A program made the position numbers and the translations under genes. From Escherichia coli (GTDB lineage: Bacteria; Pseudomonadota; Gammaproteobacteria; Enterobacterales; Enterobacteriaceae): a stretch of DNA of 64,000 nucleotides. This document shows, one piece after another, positions 42,182-49,168 of this stretch; within the stretch, counting starts at the first letter, position 1; each line of letters opens with the position of its first letter. The DNA lies in the NCBI RefSeq assembly GCF_965641715.1, contig NZ_OZ282455.1. One strand, given 5' to 3'. The notes under the pieces were generated by a model that was given only the letters and a program-made list of their open reading frames with translations, ran no database searches and had not been told where the DNA came from.

Positions 42182-42774
42182 TGAAATCAGACGAACAATA
42201 TCACGTTCCCGTGTGGATGCGACCTCTGTTGCCGTTGCTCTGCAATACCGGTGGTAATGATCCGGAGGAACTGCTGAATGATACAGAAACCACCGCCAGT
42301 GCGAATATTGTCCGTTATGTACTGATAGTTGCAGTGCGGTCGCAGATTGATCTGCTGCAGCTACTGTACAGGAAAGGACTGTTGCGCACAGAGATACCAG
42401 GTGGCTTTTCACCGGAAGAAGCGCAGGAACTCCTGGATAATCTGGTGCGCAGCCATATCAGCAAGGCGCTGTCGGGTGAGCGAATGGCAGCCCGTGACAG
42501 AAATGCCGATCTGACCTGGATTCGCCAGCAACTGGTCGATGCCGCCTGGTTTGTCCGTGCCACACTGGAAGCGCATGGGATGGGCGTCGGAAATGAGAGT
42601 CCCTCTGCTCCGCCGGAGACAATGCCGGACATACAGACACGGGAACTGGTTATGTTGATCAAGCGACTGGCATCATCGCTGAAAGCGGTGAAACCCGACA
42701 GTAGCGTGGTGCGTGAAGCGCAGGACTGGCTGTGCGACAGAAAACTTGTGGATATCACAGATATTCTCCGGTGA
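42178..42774 (+). CDS. hypothetical protein
   Basis: ORF from [13 protein letters not shown]..., start overlaps psiA stop. Confidence 0.4.
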   Translation: MMKSDEQYHVPVWMRPLLPLLCNTGGNDPEELLNDTETTASANIVRYVLIVAVRSQIDLLQLLYRKGLLRTEIPGGFSPEEAQELLDNLVRSHISKALSGERMAARDRNADLTWIRQQLVDAAWFVRATLEAHGMGVGNESPSAPPETMPDIQTRELVMLIKRLASSLKAVKPDSSVVREAQDWLCDRKLVDITDILR

Positions 42775-42875
42775 ACCAGACATGTATATTTTACGCAGGG
42801 ACACGCCGATCATGATCGTTTCATATCAGGGGTGGTCTGGAGGTCATGCGGCGTGTCCTCTGCACTCGCCGGAAT

Positions 42876-43225
42876 AAGGAAGTCGCCGGCGGCTCCGCTT
42901 TTACCCGGCCATGCGGGGCATGGCCTTGTGGGTTTTCAGCTCTGTGGCCTCAGCGTCGTGTGCGGGCTGTGCCGTGCCTCCATCTTAGCCGGGCTGGCAG
43001 GGATGCAAGGGTACGCTTCGCCGCTGCGGTCACCCGGTCCCTCCTTCCCGTCTGCCGTGATTTTCCGGTCGTTCACCCGCTCAGATTTCGCGGTCTCACC
43101 CTCCAACTCCCGCCAGCCGTGTGCGTCAGGCTGCGGCTTCCCTTGCGCCCTGTGCATCCCCGCCTTATCGCCCGGCTTTTATGGAGGCACGGCACCGCCC
43201 GGTGCCGCAGAACATGTGACTATGG
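42876..43225. repeat. leading-region dispersed repeat, family A copy 2
   Basis: Near-identical to 35931-36280; immediately upstream of ardA. Confidence 0.6.
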
Positions 43226-43236
43226 AGGATTCGGGA

Positions 43237-43737
43237 ATGTCTGTTGTTGCACCTGCTGTATACGTTGGAACCTGGCACAAATACAACTGTGGAAGTATCG
43301 CCGGACGCTGGTTTGACCTGACCACGTTTGATGATGAGCGCGACTTTTTCGCCGCCTGCCGTGCTCTTCACCAGGATGAAGCCGATCCTGAACTGATGTT
43401 TCAGGATTATGAGGGATTCCCGGGGAATATGGCCTCTGAATGCCATATCAACTGGGCCTGGGTTGAAGGCTTCCGCCGGGCACGGGATGAAGGCTGCGAA
43501 GAGGCTTATCGTCTCTGGGTGGATGATACCGGTGAGACGGATTTTGACACCTTCCGCGATGCCTGGTGGGGCGAGGCTGACAGTGAGTAGGCTTTTGCGG
43601 TTGAGTTCGTCAGTGATACCGGCCTGCTGGCTGACGTGCCGGAGACGGTGGCGCTCTATTTTGACTATGAGGCGTATGCGCGGGATTTATTCCTGGACTC
43701 CTTCACCTTTATTGACGGTCATGTGTTCCGTCGGTGA
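43237..43737 (+). pseudogene. ardA: antirestriction protein ArdA interrupted by in-frame amber codon (TAG at 43588-43590)
   Basis: N-terminal 117 codons [28 protein letters not shown]... ; after TAG the same frame continues 48 codons AFAVEFVSDTGLLADVPETVALYFDYEAYARDLFLDSFTFIDGHVFRR to TGA at 43735-43737 (total 166 codons = ArdA length). Confidence 0.75.
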
Positions 43738-43918
43738 TTTACTCCCCCGCTCCGGCGGGGGTATGGCCTGCCAGGCCGCCGGAAAACCCTGGCAGGCTTA
43801 CGCCTGCCTGAAATGCAGGAGGGCCGCGCCTGCGGCGCTGCCCTTCCTGCCCGTCATGGTGTGAGGCATTTTTCTGTTATGTCGTTTCTGTTGTTCTGAT
43901 TTCCGGAGGCGGGGACAC

Positions 43919-44415
43919 CTTCGGCTCCCGGCTGCCTGGCGGCATCCGGTCGTCAGGCCCGACTCCGACAGGCAGCTGCTGGCGCACCCGCCAGTCTCCG
44001 CCGAACCCGCTGGCGCGGTTTCGGGCTGCCGCTACGGTCCGATGTCTGAAAAACCAGGCTTGCAGCGACCGTTCCGGTCGCGCCGCCCCTGTCGCGCCGG
44101 AAACGGCGCTCCCTGCACACCTGACGGTGTGTAAGGCCACTGCGCCTGATGGCGCAGTCAACCCTTCCGCCGCCACCCCTGCGGCCTGTTTCCCGCTGTG
44201 GACTTTCCGGGGGCTGGAGTAACCACATCCCGTTTCAGCAGTCTAGGGGAAGATATACCGTCCACAAAATTTTTAGCCATAAACCCGGCAAAAAATTTTG
44301 CGTCCGCCCCCGGACAGCTGCCCCGTGACGTGGTGACGGACGCCCCATCGGAAAGGTCCACTGCGGGGAGAAACCCCGAAGAAGTGGACGGCAGAAGGGG
44401 CTTTCGCCCCTCCGG
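43919..44415. repeat. leading-region dispersed repeat, family B copy 2
   Basis: Highly similar to 37575-38075; upstream of ORF 44466. Confidence 0.6.
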
Positions 44416-44465
44416 GGAGCAACCGGTCGGCCCGGCGACCTGATTCAGCAGAAGGAGACGTTTTC

Positions 44466-44900
44466 ATGACAGTCAGCAGCACGATTTCCGTTTTTTGCCG
44501 CGACGGGGTGTTCCGTACCGTTTACTGCCACCTGCACGGGGAGCCGACCTGGAACGGTCGCATCCTGCATACCCACTATGCCACCGGTCAGCAGGCCGAA
44601 GCCCTGGTTGAACACGGTGATATCCGTTGCCTCGGTCCCCGTTGCGACAAACCCGCCGGGCATACGCTTCAGAACCCGGTGGACGGTGTGACGGCTTATT
44701 ACGGACGTGACAGTGGTTTCCGGATGGACAGTGAGGCGCGTGAGTACCGTTCTTTCAGGGAGGCTATTGCCACTGAAAGCACTGAAGAGGTGCGCTTCCA
44801 TTATGTGTTCATCGACGGCTACTGGAAGGTGATGTACCGCACGCCGGAAGGCTGGAAGATGAAAGCGCTCGCGCTGGCACTGCGTCGCTGTCCGAAATGA
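44466..44900 (+). CDS. hypothetical protein
   Basis: 144-aa ORF with RBS GAAGGAGA upstream. Confidence 0.4.
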   Translation: MTVSSTISVFCRDGVFRTVYCHLHGEPTWNGRILHTHYATGQQAEALVEHGDIRCLGPRCDKPAGHTLQNPVDGVTAYYGRDSGFRMDSEAREYRSFREAIATESTEEVRFHYVFIDGYWKVMYRTPEGWKMKALALALRRCPK

Positions 44901-44993
44901 AAAAAAGGCAGGGCGATAAACCCTGCCTCTCTCCGCCGGCGCTTCCCCGCCAGGAAGTCCGGCATCTCAATCACTATCTATGGAGATTATGCC

Positions 44994-45260
44994 ATGAGAC
45001 CATCAATTATCTTCGCAACCGCCGAGTATGTAAAGCGTCTGCGTGAAGAGTGCCTGCGGGAGAATAAACCCCTGCACCGCCATACCCGCTTCAGACGTCA
45101 GGAGCTGGCACAGGATGAGATTAACCCGGACGTCCTGGCGATGAGCGGCCATATCGCCAGACGCTGCAGTGAGCAGAAGCGGGTGCGTATCCCCGCTATG
45201 AAAGTCAGCGAATGGGGCCACCTGCTCCGCGCGCTTGAAATTGAGCGGGTCTGCCACTGA
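44994..45260 (+). CDS. hypothetical protein
   Basis: 88-aa ORF. Confidence 0.35.
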   Translation: MRPSIIFATAEYVKRLREECLRENKPLHRHTRFRRQELAQDEINPDVLAMSGHIARRCSEQKRVRIPAMKVSEWGHLLRALEIERVCH

Positions 45261-45324
45261 TTAACCCTTGCCGTCTGCCTGTGCAGGCGGCAGGATACGT
45301 TCAGACATCTCACCAGGAGGAACC

Positions 45325-46251
45325 GTGAGTAAGAAGAAAACCACCACGACGCCCACGCCGCATGATGCCGCGTTCCGGTCGTTCCTGGCGAATCCCGACG
45401 TCGCCAGAGATTTTCTGGAACTGCATCTTCCGGCGGAGTACCGGCAGTTGTGCGACCTGTCCACGCTGAAGCTGGAACCCGCCACCTTTGTTGAGCCGGA
45501 CCTGCATCAGTACGCCAGCGATATCCTCTGGAGTGTGAAAACCACCGGGGGTGAAGATGGCTATGTTTATACGCTCATCGAGCACCAGAGCACCGAAAAT
45601 CTGTACATGCCTTTCCGCATGTTACGTTACAGTGTGGCGGCGATGCAGAGACATCTGGAGCAGCACAAAACGTTGCCACTGGTCATTCCGGTGCTGTTCT
45701 ATCACGGTGAGCGCAGCCCGTACCCGTACAGCATGAACTGGCTGGACTGTTTTGAGAATCCGGCGCTTGCGGCTAAAATATACACAAAGCCGTTTCCGCT
45801 GGTTGATATCACTGTCGTTGATGACAATGAAATCATGAACCATCGCCGGATGGCCGCACTGACGCTGCTGATGAAGCATATCCGCCATCGTGACATGATG
45901 GAGCTGCTGGACAAACTCCCGCAGGTCATGGTGGAAATTTCAGACGAGCAGGTGCGTGTTCTGATTCATTACATCGTTAACGCAGGGGACTCTGTATCAC
46001 CGGAATTTATGCGGGCGCTGGCTGAGCGTCTGCCGCAGCATGAGGATAAACTGATGACTATCGCAGAACGTCTTGAGCAAAAAGGTCGCCAGGAAGGCAG
46101 GATGGAAGGACGCATGGAAGGACGCATGGAAGGAGCGCTTGAAAAAGCCCTGGCTATTGCGTGCCAGCTTCAGAAAATGGGGATGACGCCGGAGCAGATT
46201 AAGCAGGCTACCGGACTTTCCGATGACGAACTGAAGAAAATCACTCACTGA
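45325..46251 (+). CDS. Rpn (YhgA-like) family recombination-promoting nuclease / putative transposase
   Basis: GTG start after AGGAGG; ...FRSFLANPDVARDFLELHLP...YTLIEHQS... PDDEXK-type Rpn core; C-terminal tandem RMEG repeats. Confidence 0.7.
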   Translation: MSKKKTTTTPTPHDAAFRSFLANPDVARDFLELHLPAEYRQLCDLSTLKLEPATFVEPDLHQYASDILWSVKTTGGEDGYVYTLIEHQSTENLYMPFRMLRYSVAAMQRHLEQHKTLPLVIPVLFYHGERSPYPYSMNWLDCFENPALAAKIYTKPFPLVDITVVDDNEIMNHRRMAALTLLMKHIRHRDMMELLDKLPQVMVEISDEQVRVLIHYIVNAGDSVSPEFMRALAERLPQHEDKLMTIAERLEQKGRQEGRMEGRMEGRMEGALEKALAIACQLQKMGMTPEQIKQATGLSDDELKKITH

Positions 46252-46312
46252 GTAAACATCACAGCCCGGCAAAATGCCGGGCTTTTTTGTCAGCAGGAGC
46301 AGAGCAAACAGC

Positions 46313-46471
46313 ATGACGATTGCAGAACGTCTTATTCAAAAAGGCGCACTTGAAGTGGCGCGGGAAATAGCCTGCCGGCTGCGGGATATGGGCTGGACGC
46401 CGGAACGGATTCAGGAGGCAACCGGACTTTCCGGTGAAGAACTGAAAAAGCTGTTTCCTGATGAGCAGTAG
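46313..46471 (+). CDS. small protein homologous to Rpn C-terminal tail only
   Basis: MTIAERLIQKGALEVAREIACRLRDMGWTPERIQEATGLSGEELKKL mirrors Rpn tail MTIAERLEQKG...LAIACQLQKMGMTPEQIKQATGLSDDELKKI. Confidence 0.45.
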   Translation: MTIAERLIQKGALEVAREIACRLRDMGWTPERIQEATGLSGEELKKLFPDEQ

Positions 46472-46501
46472 CCTGGCATTCAGCCAGGCTGTGAATCACG
46501 C

Positions 46502-46753
46502 TCACACATCCTCTGCCGTTTCCCCCAGTTCATTTTCCAGTCGCCTGATGATATCTGCCTTACGCATCCCCTGCATGTGAGGCAGCAGGTCACGGACTGA
46601 AAGTGCCTGGGTGGTCCTCCAGACGGTGACGTCCACCTGTTCCGCATTTTCCCAGGCGTGCCATGTTCTCTGCGTCACGCCAAATTCTCTGGCCGCTTTT
46701 TCGCGTGACCAGAGCATGCTTTTTCGCCAGATTCGCAGTTCCCAGCCGGTCAT
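46502..46753 (-). CDS. putative HTH DNA-binding protein
   Basis: 83-aa ORF; ...SREKAAREFGVTQRTWHAWE... HTH-like. Confidence 0.4.
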   Translation of the reverse strand: MTGWELRIWRKSMLWSREKAAREFGVTQRTWHAWENAEQVDVTVWRTTQALSVRDLLPHMQGMRKADIIRRLENELGETAEDV

Positions 46754-46949
46754 AAAACACCTTTAAAAAAGTGAAAAAACTTCACTTTATTTTATCATCA
46801 TAATCACCAAATTAACGCGATAAATAAGTGTGAAAAAGTGAAGAAATTTCACTTTTTTTGCTTGTAAATGTCGTGCGGTTTTCTCTGTTTTCACCTGTGC
46901 GGGAGTGGTGTGCCAGTGACCACCACATGCCATTGTTGTGCCGTCGTTT

Positions 46950-47295
46950 TTCTTCAGTCGCGCCGTATGCGGCGCTCCCTGCACACCTTACGGTGTGTAA
47001 GGCCACTGCGCCTGATGGCGCAGCTGTCTCTGCCTGTCTGCCGCCGCACTGCGGCCTGTTCTCCGCAGACGGACTTTCCGGGGGTACATACATGACCACA
47101 TCCCGTTTCAGTCGTCCAGGGGAGAGATGTACCAGCCACAAAACTTTTTGCCGCAGGCGTCAAAAACTTTTGCGTCTGCCCCCGGACAACTGCCCCGTGA
47201 CGTGGTGAGCGTCCCCCGTCGGAAAGGTCCACTGCGGGGAAATCCCCGAAGACCCGGACGGCAGAAGGAGCTTCGCTCCTCCGGGAAATGACCTG
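46950..47295. repeat. leading-region dispersed repeat, family B copy 3 (shorter)
   Basis: Shares ~350 bp core with copies at 37575 and 43919; upstream of ORF 47330. Confidence 0.55.
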
Positions 47296-47329
47296 GCTGA
47301 CCCGGCAGTCGTGACGATGAGGAGACAAT

Positions 47330-48181
47330 GTGATGAATCAGACTTTACCCACTGCTGACCTGAATACTGCCGGCACGACAGATGTTATTCCGTCTGTGGC
47401 TATCGACCGCATCATCGCGCAGCGTAACGAAGGTATTGCACTGTTCATGCAGGCGATGGAATGCCTGGCGACAGCGCGCAAGATTCTGCTCGATGCGTCA
47501 GGTGATATTTTTCTTTACGGGTTTGAAGACTGCGTGACTGATTCCGTTCGTCGCATAGATAAACCGGAAGAAGCGAAAAGGAATATCACCCGTCTTGCCG
47601 ACCGGAAAATCTGGGATCGCCTGATGACAGATACGGGCATGTACACCTTCATGAGTTCATGCCAGCGTGATGAGTGGAACAGCCAGCTGATGAGCGACAC
47701 CTGTCCTGAAATCACCCTGGACAATGTACTGGCAACATTCCGCCATCTGAATGCCTGCAAGATGCAGACATTTGAACAGGGACTGATTGATGTCTACCGG
47801 AAATTGTCATGGGATTACAGAACCAATAATCCCTGCCGTCTGGGTAAGAAAATCATTATTGAAAACCTGCTGTACCGCTGGAGTAACGGGCGTGTGACGC
47901 TGGACTGCAGCGGACGGGAGGCACTGGATGACCTGGTACGTCCGTTTTATCTGCTGGAGGGGCGCAACGTTCCTGACTTCAGGAACAGTATCGGGGCGCA
48001 GTATGGTGAATTTCTCGGGAACGGCGACAATGTCGGTAAGCTGTTAGAAGGGGAATATTTTACGGTGCGTGGCTACCAGAAAGGGACCGTACACATTGTC
48101 TTTAAGCGTTCTGACCTTGTTGAAAAACTGAATGATATTATTGCACGGCATTATCCAGGTGCATTGCCGCCACGAGTCTGA
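47330..48181 (+). CDS. hypothetical leading-region protein (first ORF inward of oriT)
   Basis: 283-aa ORF preceded by RBS GAGGAG. Confidence 0.4.
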   Translation: MMNQTLPTADLNTAGTTDVIPSVAIDRIIAQRNEGIALFMQAMECLATARKILLDASGDIFLYGFEDCVTDSVRRIDKPEEAKRNITRLADRKIWDRLMTDTGMYTFMSSCQRDEWNSQLMSDTCPEITLDNVLATFRHLNACKMQTFEQGLIDVYRKLSWDYRTNNPCRLGKKIIIENLLYRWSNGRVTLDCSGREALDDLVRPFYLLEGRNVPDFRNSIGAQYGEFLGNGDNVGKLLEGEYFTVRGYQKGTVHIVFKRSDLVEKLNDIIARHYPGALPPRV

Positions 48182-48266
48182 TTAAACAGAAAAGCCCTGG
48201 TATTTATGCCGGGGCTTTTTTTTCTGTAATCATCATAATCTCAGAACACGATGTGACATTGTCACA

Positions 48267-48608
48267 TCAATTGTTGTTCATATCGATGCCATCTTTCCTG
48301 CCTGAATCTGTCTTTTTAGGTGCTGTTTTAGAGGAAGAACGGCGGGATGGTTTTTTCGATTCTGCTTCCCGAATAATGTCACGAAGTGCCTTCTCTCCTA
48401 CTTCATACCCTGCATTTTTGAGCGTGTCACGAACATCTGCCAGTGTATAACCCTTTGTCCTTACCAGGACAATAATGTCATCACGAATGGCATCAAGAAA
48501 ATCACGCAATGTTTTCCGTTGAGCGGTGAGATCTGGCAATTCCGATAAAGCAGCTTTTGCCAGCTGGATGTCATCATCTGAGTAAAATTTTTTAGAAGCC
48601 ATTGGCAC
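48267..48608 (-). CDS. hypothetical basic protein (possible DNA-binding)
   Basis: 113 aa, Lys/Arg/Ser-rich C-terminal tail; adjacent to oriT. Confidence 0.35.
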   Translation of the reverse strand: MPMASKKFYSDDDIQLAKAALSELPDLTAQRKTLRDFLDAIRDDIIVLVRTKGYTLADVRDTLKNAGYEVGEKALRDIIREAESKKPSRRSSSKTAPKKTDSGRKDGIDMNNN

Positions 48609-48639
48609 TTTCTCTCCGTTTCATGTTGAAGTCTGATTT

Positions 48640-48835
48640 TATCATCAAAAACTGACTCCTGGCAGGGCTGCGCCCTGCCTCTGCCGTCTGCATAAGACTA
48701 TGATGCACAAAAATAACAGGCTATAATGGCCTGAAAAACGGGACAGGATGTGCAATTGTAATACCGTCACACGCGACGCTATTACAATTGCCATCTGGTC
48801 AGGGCTTCGCCCCGACACCCCGTAAGGAGCCTGAA
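48640..48835. other. origin of transfer (IncI1-type oriT) region
   Basis: Immediately upstream of nikA; inverted repeats GGCAGGGC-TG-CGCCCTGCC (48661-48679) and perfect 12-bp IR GCAATTGTAATA(48752-48763)/TATTACAATTGC(48780-48791). Confidence 0.7.
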
Positions 48836-49168
48836 GTGAGTGATAGTGCGGTAAGAAAGAAAAGTGAGGTACGGCAAAAGACAGTTGTCAGGACACTCAG
48901 ATTCTCTCCTGTTGAGGATGAAACCATCAGGAAAAAAGCTGAAGATTCCGGACTTACTGTATCTGCTTACATCCGAAATGCAGCACTGAATAAGCGAATT
49001 AACTCCCGTACAGATGATGCTTTTCTGAAGGAGTTAATGAGACTGGGAAGGATGCAGAAGCATCTGTTTGTTCAGGGAAAAAGAACCGGTGACAAGGAAT
49101 ACGCAGAAGTGCTTGTTGCCATAACCGAACTTACAAATACATTGCGTAAACAGTTAATGGAAGGTTGA
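48836..49168 (+). CDS. nikA: relaxosome accessory protein NikA (RHH)
   Basis: GTG start after AAGGAG; VSDSAVRKKSEVRQKTVVRTLRFSPVEDETIRKKAEDSGLTVSAYIRNAAL... matches R64 NikA. Confidence 0.9.
   Translation: MSDSAVRKKSEVRQKTVVRTLRFSPVEDETIRKKAEDSGLTVSAYIRNAALNKRINSRTDDAFLKELMRLGRMQKHLFVQGKRTGDKEYAEVLVAITELTNTLRKQLMEG

What the first reader, a model, noticed from the sequence alone, without database searches (positions are those of the whole stretch)
45325..46471. Rpn-family nuclease with tandem RMEG repeats, followed by a stand-alone copy of its own C-terminal tail
The Rpn gene (45325-46251) carries 15-bp tandem repeats encoding (G)RMEG three times near its C-terminus. A separate 53-aa ORF at 46313-46471 reproduces the Rpn tail almost residue for residue (MTIAERL.QKG ... 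TPE.I..ATGLS..ELKK). This resembles the reported arrangement in which a small protein made from the Rpn tail counteracts the nuclease.
Basis: partly seen in the sequence, partly recalled or inferred. Interest (0 to 1): 0.5.

Follow-up and report, generated by a model that had tools for sequence, protein, structure and literature searches.

The report
Known plasmid Rpn toxin–antitoxin locus (rpnP2)
This is the already published plasmid phage-defence gene rpnP2, a toxic nuclease that carries its own antidote inside the gene, followed by an extra stand-alone copy of the antidote domain that is real and conserved but is probably not the antidote for the neighbouring nuclease.

Summary
45325-46251 encodes a 308-aa Rpn nuclease. 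Its tandem repeat has a 12-bp period, not 15 bp: four units, GRQE plus GRME x3. The downstream ORF 46313-46471 (52 aa) is a true paralogue of the Rpn tail (E 8e-16; 70% identical once a 16-aa gap over the repeats is excluded).

The gene is an allele of rpnP2 from Zhong et al., PNAS 2023 (397/399 nt identical to their synthetic construct). It lies in the leading region of an IncI1-type conjugative plasmid. In that system the demonstrated antitoxin is RpnS, translated from an internal start. Here that start is ATG 46054 with a conserved GAGGA upstream. Downstream copies ("RpnSs", such as ypaA) are also described there, but their function was not tested.

New here:
- The downstream gene has its own repeat site (GFxE units; 0 here, 0-6 in relatives). 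This varies independently of the nuclease's array (0-7 units).
- It is under purifying selection.
- It sits behind a conserved terminator.
- It was truncated in the published non-toxic construct.

By the published "same repeat number" rule it is unlikely to be the cognate antitoxin. Verdict: already known system, modest added interest.

The parts
45325..46251 (+). rpnP2-L: 308-aa Rpn (YhgA-like) PD-(D/E)XK nuclease, the toxin. Catalytic residues are D14 (45364-45366), D66 (45520-45522), E86 (45580-45582) and Q88 (45586-45588).
   Evidence: PF04754 covers residues 11-207, E 2.3e-78. TIGR01784 scores above its cutoff. Window 45025-45423 is 397/399 identical to the published rpnP2 gBlock AO591. 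The published active-site mutant AO730 changes exactly these four codons.
45752..45779 (+). Promoter-like site inside rpn (TTGAGA-16-TAAAAT, 10/12 match). It is a candidate internal promoter for the RpnS transcript.
   Evidence: Consensus scan only. Zhong et al. draw an internal promoter in rpn genes. Not tested here.
46042..46046 (+). Shine-Dalgarno GAGGA, 7 nt upstream of the internal start codon.
   Evidence: Read from the sequence. Conserved in 15/15 related loci in two allelic contexts.
46054..46251 (+). rpnP2-S: 65-aa intragenic antitoxin, in frame with rpnP2-L from M244 (MTIAERLEQKG...KKITH).
   Evidence: In-frame ATG at codon 244. Same arrangement as the RpnS proteins shown experimentally for RpnA/B/C/P2. 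A profile of these tails hits PDB 7TH0 (RpnA-S) at E 8.7e-11.
46085..46132 (+). Array of four 12-nt units encoding GRQE-GRME-GRME-GRME. It begins 11 residues after M244. GACGCATGGAAG is the unit that expands and contracts.
   Evidence: Tandem Repeats Finder, period 12. An allelic series of 0, 1, 2, 3, 4 and 5 units has flanks that are identical or nearly so (149/149 nt for the 3-, 4- and 5-unit alleles). A 6-unit variant is P0177.
46263..46289 (+). Intrinsic-terminator-like hairpin (9-bp stem with 7 G-C pairs, then a T6 run) between rpnP2 and the small ORF.
   Evidence: Conserved in all related loci, including a compensatory A-T to G-C change at the stem base in L011-L014. It also precedes every stand-alone tail in the three-tail loci.
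46295..46299 (+). AGGAG, 13 nt upstream of the small ORF's ATG. The spacing is long for a Shine-Dalgarno site.
   Evidence: conserved in 14 of 15 Ss starts; the one variant, L010, reads AGGGG.
46313..46471 (+). rpnP2-Ss: 52-aa stand-alone paralogue of the Rpn C-terminal domain, with zero repeat units in this plasmid. RefSeq annotates a 65-aa form from ATG 46274. That start lies in the terminator loop and is absent in several relatives.
   Evidence: BLASTP E 8e-16 to Rpn 244-306. AlphaFold2 gives three helices, pLDDT 77. Best PDB fold match is 7TH0 RpnA-S, TM 0.76/0.85, rmsd 1.1 A. pN/pS is 0.26 over 12 alleles. Relatives carry 0-6 GF(D/E/K)(E/K/Q) units at the same position. The exact protein is indexed in 10,305 blocks of the assembly collection. 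PF27070 HTH_Rpn_C is recorded on near-identical relatives.

Best explanation
The locus is the rpnP2 Rpn toxin-antitoxin phage-defence module of IncI/K/B/O/Z conjugative plasmids. It has three layers.

1. rpnP2-L (45325-46251) is a PD-(D/E)XK DNA endonuclease whose unrestrained activity is toxic.

2. rpnP2-S (46054-46251) is translated from an internal start in the same frame.
- It is identical to the C-terminal three-helix domain of L.
- It binds that domain through the long first helix and blocks the nuclease.
- The 12-nt units (four here) lengthen that helix. Because L and S share the same DNA, both change together, which re-sets pairing specificity. The number changes by slippage or unequal exchange.

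3. rpnP2-Ss (46313-46471) is an 'RpnSs'-class paralogue.
- It arose by unequal crossing-over at the conserved ATGACNATYGCAGAACGTCTT (MTIAERL) box.
- It now evolves as a separate, selected gene behind a conserved terminator, with its own repeat site. That site has collapsed to zero units in this plasmid.
- It differs from L's tail by four units and about 30% of the remaining residues. It most likely forms its own dimer and is not the cognate antitoxin of the adjacent L.
- Its likeliest job is a second, independently tuned specificity: pairing with Rpn tails of matching helix length supplied in trans.

How firm each step is:
- Steps 1 and 2 are shown by identity with the published system.
- The origin of step 3 is shown by comparative anatomy.
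- The function of step 3 is inferred.
For: Identity:
- Window 45025-45423 is 397/399 nt identical to the published rpnP2 gBlock.
- The four catalytic residues mutated in the published active-site mutant are present.
- PF04754 and TIGR01784 both match.

Published behaviour of RpnP2:
- L alone is toxic and L plus S is not.
- It gives 10-fold or greater protection against T-even phages.
- Only an S with the same repeat number blocks L.

Internal start: GAGGA 7 nt before ATG 46054, conserved in 15/15 loci.

Repeat dynamics: alleles with 0, 1, 2, 3, 4 and 5 units and flanks that are identical or nearly so.

Ss is a real gene:
- pN/pS 0.26.
- Intact in all sampled loci except two with IS element damage.
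- The exact protein occurs in over 10,000 index blocks.
- RpnA-S fold.

Ss is independent of L:
- An identical Ss sits next to L alleles with 2, 3, 4 or 5 units.
- An identical L (WP_000038335.1) sits next to Ss with 2 or 3 units.
- In the 15 sampled plasmid loci L ranges 0-7 units and Ss 0-6, with no correlation.

Ss is dispensable for self-immunity: the published non-toxic RpnP2-LS construct ends 101 nt after the rpn stop, at about codon 14 of Ss.

Origin by unequal exchange:
- Three-tail loci L010 and L037, and protein P0140, carry the window-type L tail as a stand-alone cassette behind the same terminator and junction.
- The spacing of the two homology blocks differs by exactly 48 nt.

Same pattern in the founding example: K-12 RpnE-S and YpaA differ by one 4-aa unit.
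Against: - Nothing here measures translation of Ss, its binding partners or its effect on toxicity.
- The 'same repeat number' rule was shown for RpnC only. It is extrapolated to RpnP2 and to a paralogue that also differs in sequence.
- Ss lies behind a strong-looking terminator with a 13-nt SD spacing, so its expression could be very low.
- The comparative sample is about 35 loci chosen from spread rankings, not a full census of the 2000+ plasmids.
- pN/pS pools non-independent pairs.
Confidence: 0.8

Rival explanations
1. One reading: the stand-alone ORF is a second antitoxin. It binds the adjacent RpnP2-L and counteracts it, adding to or backing up the intragenic RpnS.
For: - It is homologous to L's C-terminal domain and has the RpnA-S fold.
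- It is under purifying selection and almost always retained next to rpnP2.
- The helix-1 start MTIAERLxQKG is nearly identical in both.
- The K-12 counterpart YpaA is synthesised.
Against: - It has 0 repeat units against 4 in L. One extra unit abolished inhibition in RpnC.
- The Ss and L arrays vary independently.
- The published RpnP2-LS construct lacking an intact Ss was non-toxic.
Confidence: 0.2
2. Ss is a trans-acting 'orphan' antitoxin used as anti-defence or in plasmid-plasmid competition. Made early after conjugative entry from the leading region, it would neutralise Rpn nucleases with matching helix length in the recipient, for example resident RpnP2 alleles.
For: - The locus lies 2.3-3.4 kb from oriT/nikA in the leading region, beside ardA, psiB and ssb. 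It is in the orientation of leading genes, between two ssi/Frpo-like hairpin repeats.
- Orphan antitoxins are over-represented in leading regions.
- Ss unit numbers (0-6) span the same range as L unit numbers (0-7) in the population. For example, the window is L4/Ss0 and L008 is L0/Ss4.
Against: - There is no direct evidence.
- The toxin gene sits in the same early region.
- Ss is less similar to chromosomal RpnA-S (18.8 bits) than the L tail is (27.9 bits).
- No promoter was detected for Ss, and a terminator lies upstream.
- L and Ss unit numbers coincide in 1 of 15 sampled loci, so there is no evidence of either avoidance or matching.
Confidence: 0.2
3. Ss is a by-product of tail duplication, or a spare cassette. 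It would have no function of its own, or serve only as raw material for swapping the nuclease's tail by recombination at the conserved flanking boxes.
For: - Three-tail loci and stand-alone copies of L-type tails show that unequal exchange at the MTIAERL box happens.
- Both ends of the tail are conserved (84% and 75%) around a variable middle.
- It sits behind a terminator with poor SD spacing.
Against: - pN/pS is 0.26, and repeat changes are always in frame.
- The ORF is intact wherever IS elements have not hit it.
- No credible full-length Rpn carries the Ss-type tail. The one candidate, P0003, lies on an N-gapped scaffold.
Confidence: 0.12

Closest known systems
RpnP2-LS of the E. coli ECOR13 plasmid (Zhong et al., PNAS 2023, PMC10400941)
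   Same: - Same gene: 397/399 nt identical over the promoter region and first 99 nt that could be compared.
- Same GTG start and same four catalytic residues.
- Same downstream junction: the published gBlock ends in an LIQKGFD-coding stretch of the downstream small ORF.
   Different: - The allele differs in tail detail.
- The ECOR13 downstream ORF carries at least one GFDE unit, whereas the window's has none.
rpnE-ypaA (RpnE-Ss) of E. coli K-12, the described example of a stand-alone downstream RpnS copy
   Same: - A small ORF immediately downstream on the same strand, beginning MTIAERL.
- It is homologous to the upstream tail (75% identical).
- It differs from that tail by an integral number of 4-aa units (one, KLEG).
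   Different: - In K-12 the gap is 12 nt with a strong SD and no terminator. Here it is 61 nt with a conserved intrinsic terminator.
- Divergence is greater here (70% identity, four units).
- RpnE is annotated as inactive, whereas RpnP2 is an active defence nuclease.
RpnA-S crystal structure (PDB 7TH0)
   Same: Three-helix bundle with a long first helix. The AlphaFold2 model of Ss superposes with TM 0.76/0.85 and rmsd 1.1 A at 48% identity. The tail profile hits it at E 8.7e-11.
   Different: It comes from a different Rpn paralogue. No structure of an S-Ss or L-Ss pair exists.
EcoR124I/II HsdS TAEL repeats (cited by Zhong et al. as a precedent)
   Same: The number of 4-aa repeats in a helix sets the specificity of a defence protein.
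   Different: There the repeats set DNA target spacing. Here they set protein-protein pairing. This is a resemblance only and was not tested here.

Membership tests
Rpn / YhgA-like PD-(D/E)XK nucleases (PF04754, TIGR01784) | N-terminal Transposase_31 domain | tested here: met
   PF04754 E 2.3e-78, residues 11-207 against model positions 1-197 of 203. TIGR01784 scores 180.4 bits against a cutoff of 52.1.
Rpn / YhgA-like PD-(D/E)XK nucleases (PF04754, TIGR01784) | Catalytic acidic residues and the E-x-Q motif | tested here: met
   D14, D66, E86 and Q88 are present. They are exactly the codons altered in the published RpnP2 active-site mutant gBlock AO730.
Rpn / YhgA-like PD-(D/E)XK nucleases (PF04754, TIGR01784) | DNA endonuclease activity and toxicity | not testable with these tools
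   Shown for RpnA, RpnB and the ECOR13 RpnP2 allele in the literature. Not shown for this allele.
RpnL/RpnS gene-within-gene toxin-antitoxin | In-frame internal start with a ribosome-binding site at the head of the C-terminal domain | tested here: met
   ATG 46054 (M244) with GAGGA 7 nt upstream, conserved in 15/15 loci.
RpnL/RpnS gene-within-gene toxin-antitoxin | Four-amino-acid (12-nt) repeats beginning 8-20 residues after the RpnS methionine, varying in number between strains | tested here: met
   The array starts at residue 11-12 of RpnS. Otherwise near-identical alleles carry 0-6 units.
RpnL/RpnS gene-within-gene toxin-antitoxin | Small protein actually translated, and blocks RpnL | not testable with these tools
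   Shown for the ECOR13 allele: L* is toxic, LS is not.
RpnSs (stand-alone downstream RpnS homologue, e.g. YpaA) | Separate ORF just downstream on the same strand, homologous to the upstream tail and closer to it than to other Rpn tails | tested here: met
   E 8e-16 and 70% identity outside the gap to its own L tail, against 48% to RpnA-S. Alignment of tails.
RpnSs (stand-alone downstream RpnS homologue, e.g. YpaA) | Pfam domain of stand-alone RpnS genes (DUF4351, PF14261, as named by Zhong et al.) | tested here: not met
   There is no PF14261 hit, and no Pfam hit with E at or below 0.001 in the local library. A newer family, PF27070 HTH_Rpn_C, is recorded on near-identical relatives and on the L tail. 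TIGR01784 positions 232-273 match at E 1.7e-4.
RpnSs (stand-alone downstream RpnS homologue, e.g. YpaA) | RpnS three-helix fold | tested here: met
   AlphaFold2 pLDDT 77, helices 3-25, 30-37 and 41-47. Top PDB match is 7TH0.
RpnSs (stand-alone downstream RpnS homologue, e.g. YpaA) | Neutralises the adjacent RpnL | not testable with these tools
   Not demonstrated for any RpnSs in the paper. Indirect evidence here argues against it: repeat mismatch, independent variation, and dispensability in the published construct.

The most novel reading that the evidence does not exclude
The stand-alone tail may be a separately tuned, trans-acting anti-Rpn protein rather than a back-up antitoxin. Expressed from the plasmid leading region on entry, Ss with n repeat units would disarm Rpn nucleases whose tails have the same helix length in the recipient or in rival plasmids.

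On this reading the independent expansion and contraction of the L array and the Ss array record a two-sided arms race, defence and counter-defence, within one 1.1-kb locus. The same logic would explain why K-12 YpaA also differs from RpnE-S by one unit.
Probability: 0.2. Interest if true: 0.65.

Novelty: already known. Interest (0 to 1): 0.3.

Why it matters
As an identification it adds little, because rpnP2 and its intragenic antitoxin are published.

The useful residue is a sharper question about the 'RpnSs' class, whose function is unknown:
- In this very common plasmid locus the stand-alone copy is conserved and selected.
- It has its own repeat array, which varies independently of the nuclease's.
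- It was cut off in the only construct tested.

That makes a clean experiment possible. Ask whether Ss(n) inhibits RpnL(n) regardless of origin. This would decide between 'spare antitoxin', 'trans-acting anti-defence' and 'recombination leftover'.

It is also a reminder that RefSeq annotates the gene with a start codon inside a terminator loop.

Tried and rejected
1. Search for a full-length Rpn carrying the Ss-type tail.
- The Ss query returned only small proteins in the top 120 hits.
- A chimeric L-body plus Ss-tail query gave one apparent fusion, P0003. Its contig is an N-gapped scaffold with shuffled fragments, so it is an assembly artefact.

2. The exhaustive representative search with Ss gave only 41 hits, mostly fragments. 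It could not show which full-length Rpn tails are closest.

3. Idea that Ss mimics chromosomal RpnA-S: rejected. Ss scores lower against 7TH0 (18.8 bits) than the repeat-less L tail does (27.9 bits).

4. PDB sequence hits to IcmE/DotG, designed PPR and 'CAP repeat' proteins are many weak matches to a generic helix-turn-helix-like repeat. They were disregarded.

5. Library scans with nothing useful:
- The local Pfam scan found nothing significant for Ss.
- PADLOC has no model for either protein.
- Rfam found nothing in 42500-49000.

6. No supplementary data were held for the IncI1 early-conjugation transcriptome paper. Whether this operon is zygotically induced could not be checked.

7. A linked-chain AlphaFold test of L-tail/Ss pairing was considered. 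It was not run, because one job without controls would not be interpretable.

Full report
**What is in the sequence**

- The + strand carries an ORF from GTG 45325 to the stop at 46251 (308 aa). A second ORF runs from ATG 46313 to the stop at 46471 (52 aa).
- The long protein is an Rpn/YhgA-like nuclease. PF04754 matches at E 2.3e-78 over residues 11-207. TIGR01784 scores 180 bits against a curated cutoff of 52.
- Tandem Repeats Finder reports a 12-bp period at 46102-46134, 2.8 copies at 100% identity.
- In register with relatives, the array is four 12-nt units at 46085-46132 encoding GRQE-GRME-GRME-GRME.
- The small ORF aligns to Rpn residues 244-306 with BLASTP E 8e-16. There are 33 identities in 63 columns, and the single 16-residue gap lies exactly over the four units.
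- At DNA level the two copies share 84% identity over the first 32 nt and 75% over the last 109 nt. The spacing of these blocks differs by 48 nt, which is four units.
The repeat period, the ORF length (52 aa, not 53) and 'almost residue for residue' need correcting.

**Where it sits**

- The segment occurs in over 2000 PLSDB plasmids, almost all conjugative, of Escherichia, Salmonella, Shigella and Klebsiella.
- The window is 99.9% identical over 24 kb to an IncI1-type plasmid.
- The gene order is ssb, psiB, psiA, ardA, orf144, orf88, rpn, small ORF, a convergent HTH gene, DUF4942, a mobC-like gene, then nikA and nikB.
- This is the leading region, 2.3-3.4 kb from oriT. The + strand genes point towards oriT. 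From the established model of single-strand transfer, this is the orientation expected for genes transcribed from the incoming strand. That step is inference.

**It is the published rpnP2**

Zhong et al. (PNAS 2023, PMC10400941) reported the following:
- Rpn proteins are toxin-antitoxin phage-defence systems built as genes within genes.
- Full-length RpnL is a toxic nuclease.
- RpnS, translated from an internal start, is its C-terminal domain and blocks it.
- Only an RpnS with the same number of repeats inhibits its RpnL (shown for RpnC).
- Some rpn genes are followed by a separate small homologue, 'RpnSs', for example ypaA after rpnE.
- The plasmid gene rpnP2 of ECOR13 protects against T-even phages.

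Comparison with their oligonucleotide table (preprint PMC10327210, supplement 3):
- The visible 399 nt of their rpnP2 gBlock match window 45025-45423 at 397/399.
- Their active-site mutant changes codons D14, D66, E86 and Q88. All four are present here.
- The gene in the window is therefore an allele of rpnP2.

**The real antitoxin is internal**

- Codon 244 is ATG 46054, in frame with the nuclease. GAGGA lies 7 nt upstream.
- Both are conserved in all 15 relatives examined, in two allelic sequence contexts.
- The product, MTIAERLEQKG-(GRQE GRME GRME GRME)-ALEK...KKITH (65 aa), is RpnP2-S.
- A profile of these tails finds the RpnA-S crystal chain 7TH0 at E 8.7e-11.
- A promoter-like site lies inside the gene at 45752-45779. 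It is only a consensus match.

- Plasmid alleles carry 0, 1, 2, 3, 4 or 5 units. The non-repeat tail DNA is 149/149 identical to the window in the 3-, 4- and 5-unit alleles, 148/149 in a 1-unit allele and 134/149 in the 0-unit allele.
- A protein with 6 units is in the database.
- The unit that multiplies is GACGCATGGAAG.
- Other alleles have a different unit (GIQQ, 3-7 copies) and two other distal-helix sequences.
- Across the plasmid collection the tail segment drops to 73-90% identity and its length changes in steps of 12. The whole locus is mostly 95-99% identical.

**The stand-alone copy**

It is a real, conserved gene:
- It is intact in every sampled locus except L014, where an IS21 element has replaced its 3' end. 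In L015 an IS91 element truncates the rpn gene itself but leaves Ss intact.
- Pooled pN/pS over 12 alleles is 0.26.
- The exact protein is indexed in 10,305 blocks of the assembly collection.
- Its AlphaFold2 model has pLDDT 77 and three helices. Its best PDB match is RpnA-S, with TM 0.76/0.85, rmsd 1.1 A and 48% identity.
- The conserved start is ATG 46313. RefSeq's longer 65-aa form starts at an ATG in the loop of the upstream hairpin, and in-frame upstream ATGs are missing in several relatives.

It has its own repeat site at the same helix position:
- Relatives carry 0, 1, 2, 3, 4 or 6 units of GF(D/E/K)(E/K/Q). The window has none.
- This array is independent of the nuclease's.
- The identical zero-unit Ss lies beside RpnP2-L with 2, 3, 4 or 5 units.
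- The identical L (WP_000038335.1) lies beside Ss with 2 or 3 units.
- Over all sampled loci there is neither matching nor avoidance.

Between the two genes lies a 9-bp G+C-rich hairpin followed by T6 (46263-46289):
- It is conserved, with one compensatory stem change.
- AGGAG lies 13 nt before the ATG.

**How it arose**

- Two loci (L010, L037) have three tails in a row. They carry an RpnL with a GIQQ-type tail, then a stand-alone copy of the window-type L tail (GRQE/GRME units), then the GFxE-type Ss.
- Each stand-alone tail is preceded by the same hairpin and junction.
- L034-L036 carry the same Ss allele as L037, but with the type-A tail attached to the nuclease.
- Protein P0140 is another stand-alone L-type tail.
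- This is the product expected from unequal crossing-over between the MTIAERL boxes of two plasmids.
- The reciprocal product, the nuclease fused to the Ss tail, was not found credibly. The one candidate lies on an N-gapped scaffold.

**Does the stand-alone copy counteract the nuclease?**

This cannot be tested here, but three points argue that it is not the cognate antitoxin.
1. It is shorter by four units and differs at about 30% of the remaining positions. One extra unit was enough to abolish inhibition in RpnC.
2. The two arrays vary independently.
3. The published RpnP2-LS construct was non-toxic and protective.
   - Its gBlock included only 101 nt after the rpn stop.
   - The reverse primer site (CTTATACAGAAAGGTTTCGACG, encoding LIQKGFD) maps to codons 7-14 of the small ORF in six relatives. 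So Ss was truncated in that construct.

The founding example behaves alike. K-12 RpnE-S and YpaA are 75% identical and differ by one unit, KLEG.

I therefore take Ss to be an RpnSs-class paralogue with its own specificity. A trans-acting role is possible: anti-Rpn activity on entry into a new host, or against rival plasmids. This is suggested by the leading-region position and by the reported enrichment of orphan antitoxins there. It remains unproven. Ss shows no special likeness to chromosomal RpnA-S.

**Verdict**

- The added value is the anatomy and population behaviour of the stand-alone copy, which frames a simple experiment.

Noticed in passing
window 44091-44376 and 46957-47247: Two copies of a roughly 290-nt non-coding element (71-94% identical in blocks) lie 2.87 kb apart. 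The first lies upstream of orf144 and the second upstream of the DUF4942 gene; between them lie orf144, orf88, rpnP2, Ss and the HTH gene. The minus strand of the first copy folds as ssDNA into a long hairpin (-107 kcal/mol, z = -9.9). They look like ssi/Frpo-type single-strand promoters of the leading region. No Rfam family matches.
   Followed up: partly
L010 (NZ_CP029742.1) 905-1663; L037 1010-1695: These are three-tail loci: an RpnL with a GIQQ-type tail, then a stand-alone copy of the window-type GRQE/GRME tail, then the GFxE-type Ss. Each stand-alone tail lies behind the same terminator hairpin.
   Followed up: yes
L028 (E. coli K-12 NC_000913.3) 11905-13002: rpnE and ypaA are only 12 nt apart, with a strong SD and no terminator. 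RpnE-S and YpaA differ by exactly one 4-aa unit (KLEG). ypaA is annotated as a pseudogene, although the paper detected the protein.
   Followed up: partly
window 46274-46471: RefSeq (WP_001348086.1) annotates the small gene as 65 aa from ATG 46274. That start lies in the loop of the terminator hairpin. The start conserved across alleles is ATG 46313.
   Followed up: yes
window 46502-46753 (-) and 46787-46984 (-): A convergent 83-aa XRE-type HTH gene ends 31 nt after Ss, followed by a 65-aa ORF on the same strand. No NCBIfam hit. PADLOC gives only a weak 'mad1' hit (E 0.0028). Any relation to the Rpn module is unknown.
   Followed up: no
protein P0001 (Salmonella enterica, 79 aa): This Ss variant has a different internal tandem triplication, REIACRL x3 (7 aa, 21 nt), further along the protein rather than at the usual 4-aa repeat site.
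   Followed up: no
L015 (NZ_CP027334.1) and L014 (NZ_AP028824.1): IS elements have hit the locus. In L015 IS91 removes the rpn N-terminal domain, leaving only the tail and Ss. In L014 IS21 replaces the last codons of Ss.
   Followed up: partly
relatives of the small ORF: A Pfam family named HTH_Rpn_C (PF27070) is recorded in the precomputed annotations for the Rpn C-terminal domain and many stand-alone copies. It is absent from the Pfam library that profile_search scans, which returned no hit for Ss.
   Followed up: partly
window 42832-43590 (+): The ORF upstream of the first ssi-like repeat contains an ArdA-type antirestriction sequence. The matching plasmid annotates ardA, psiA, psiB and ssb further upstream. 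This is a typical IncI leading-region anti-defence island.
   Followed up: partly
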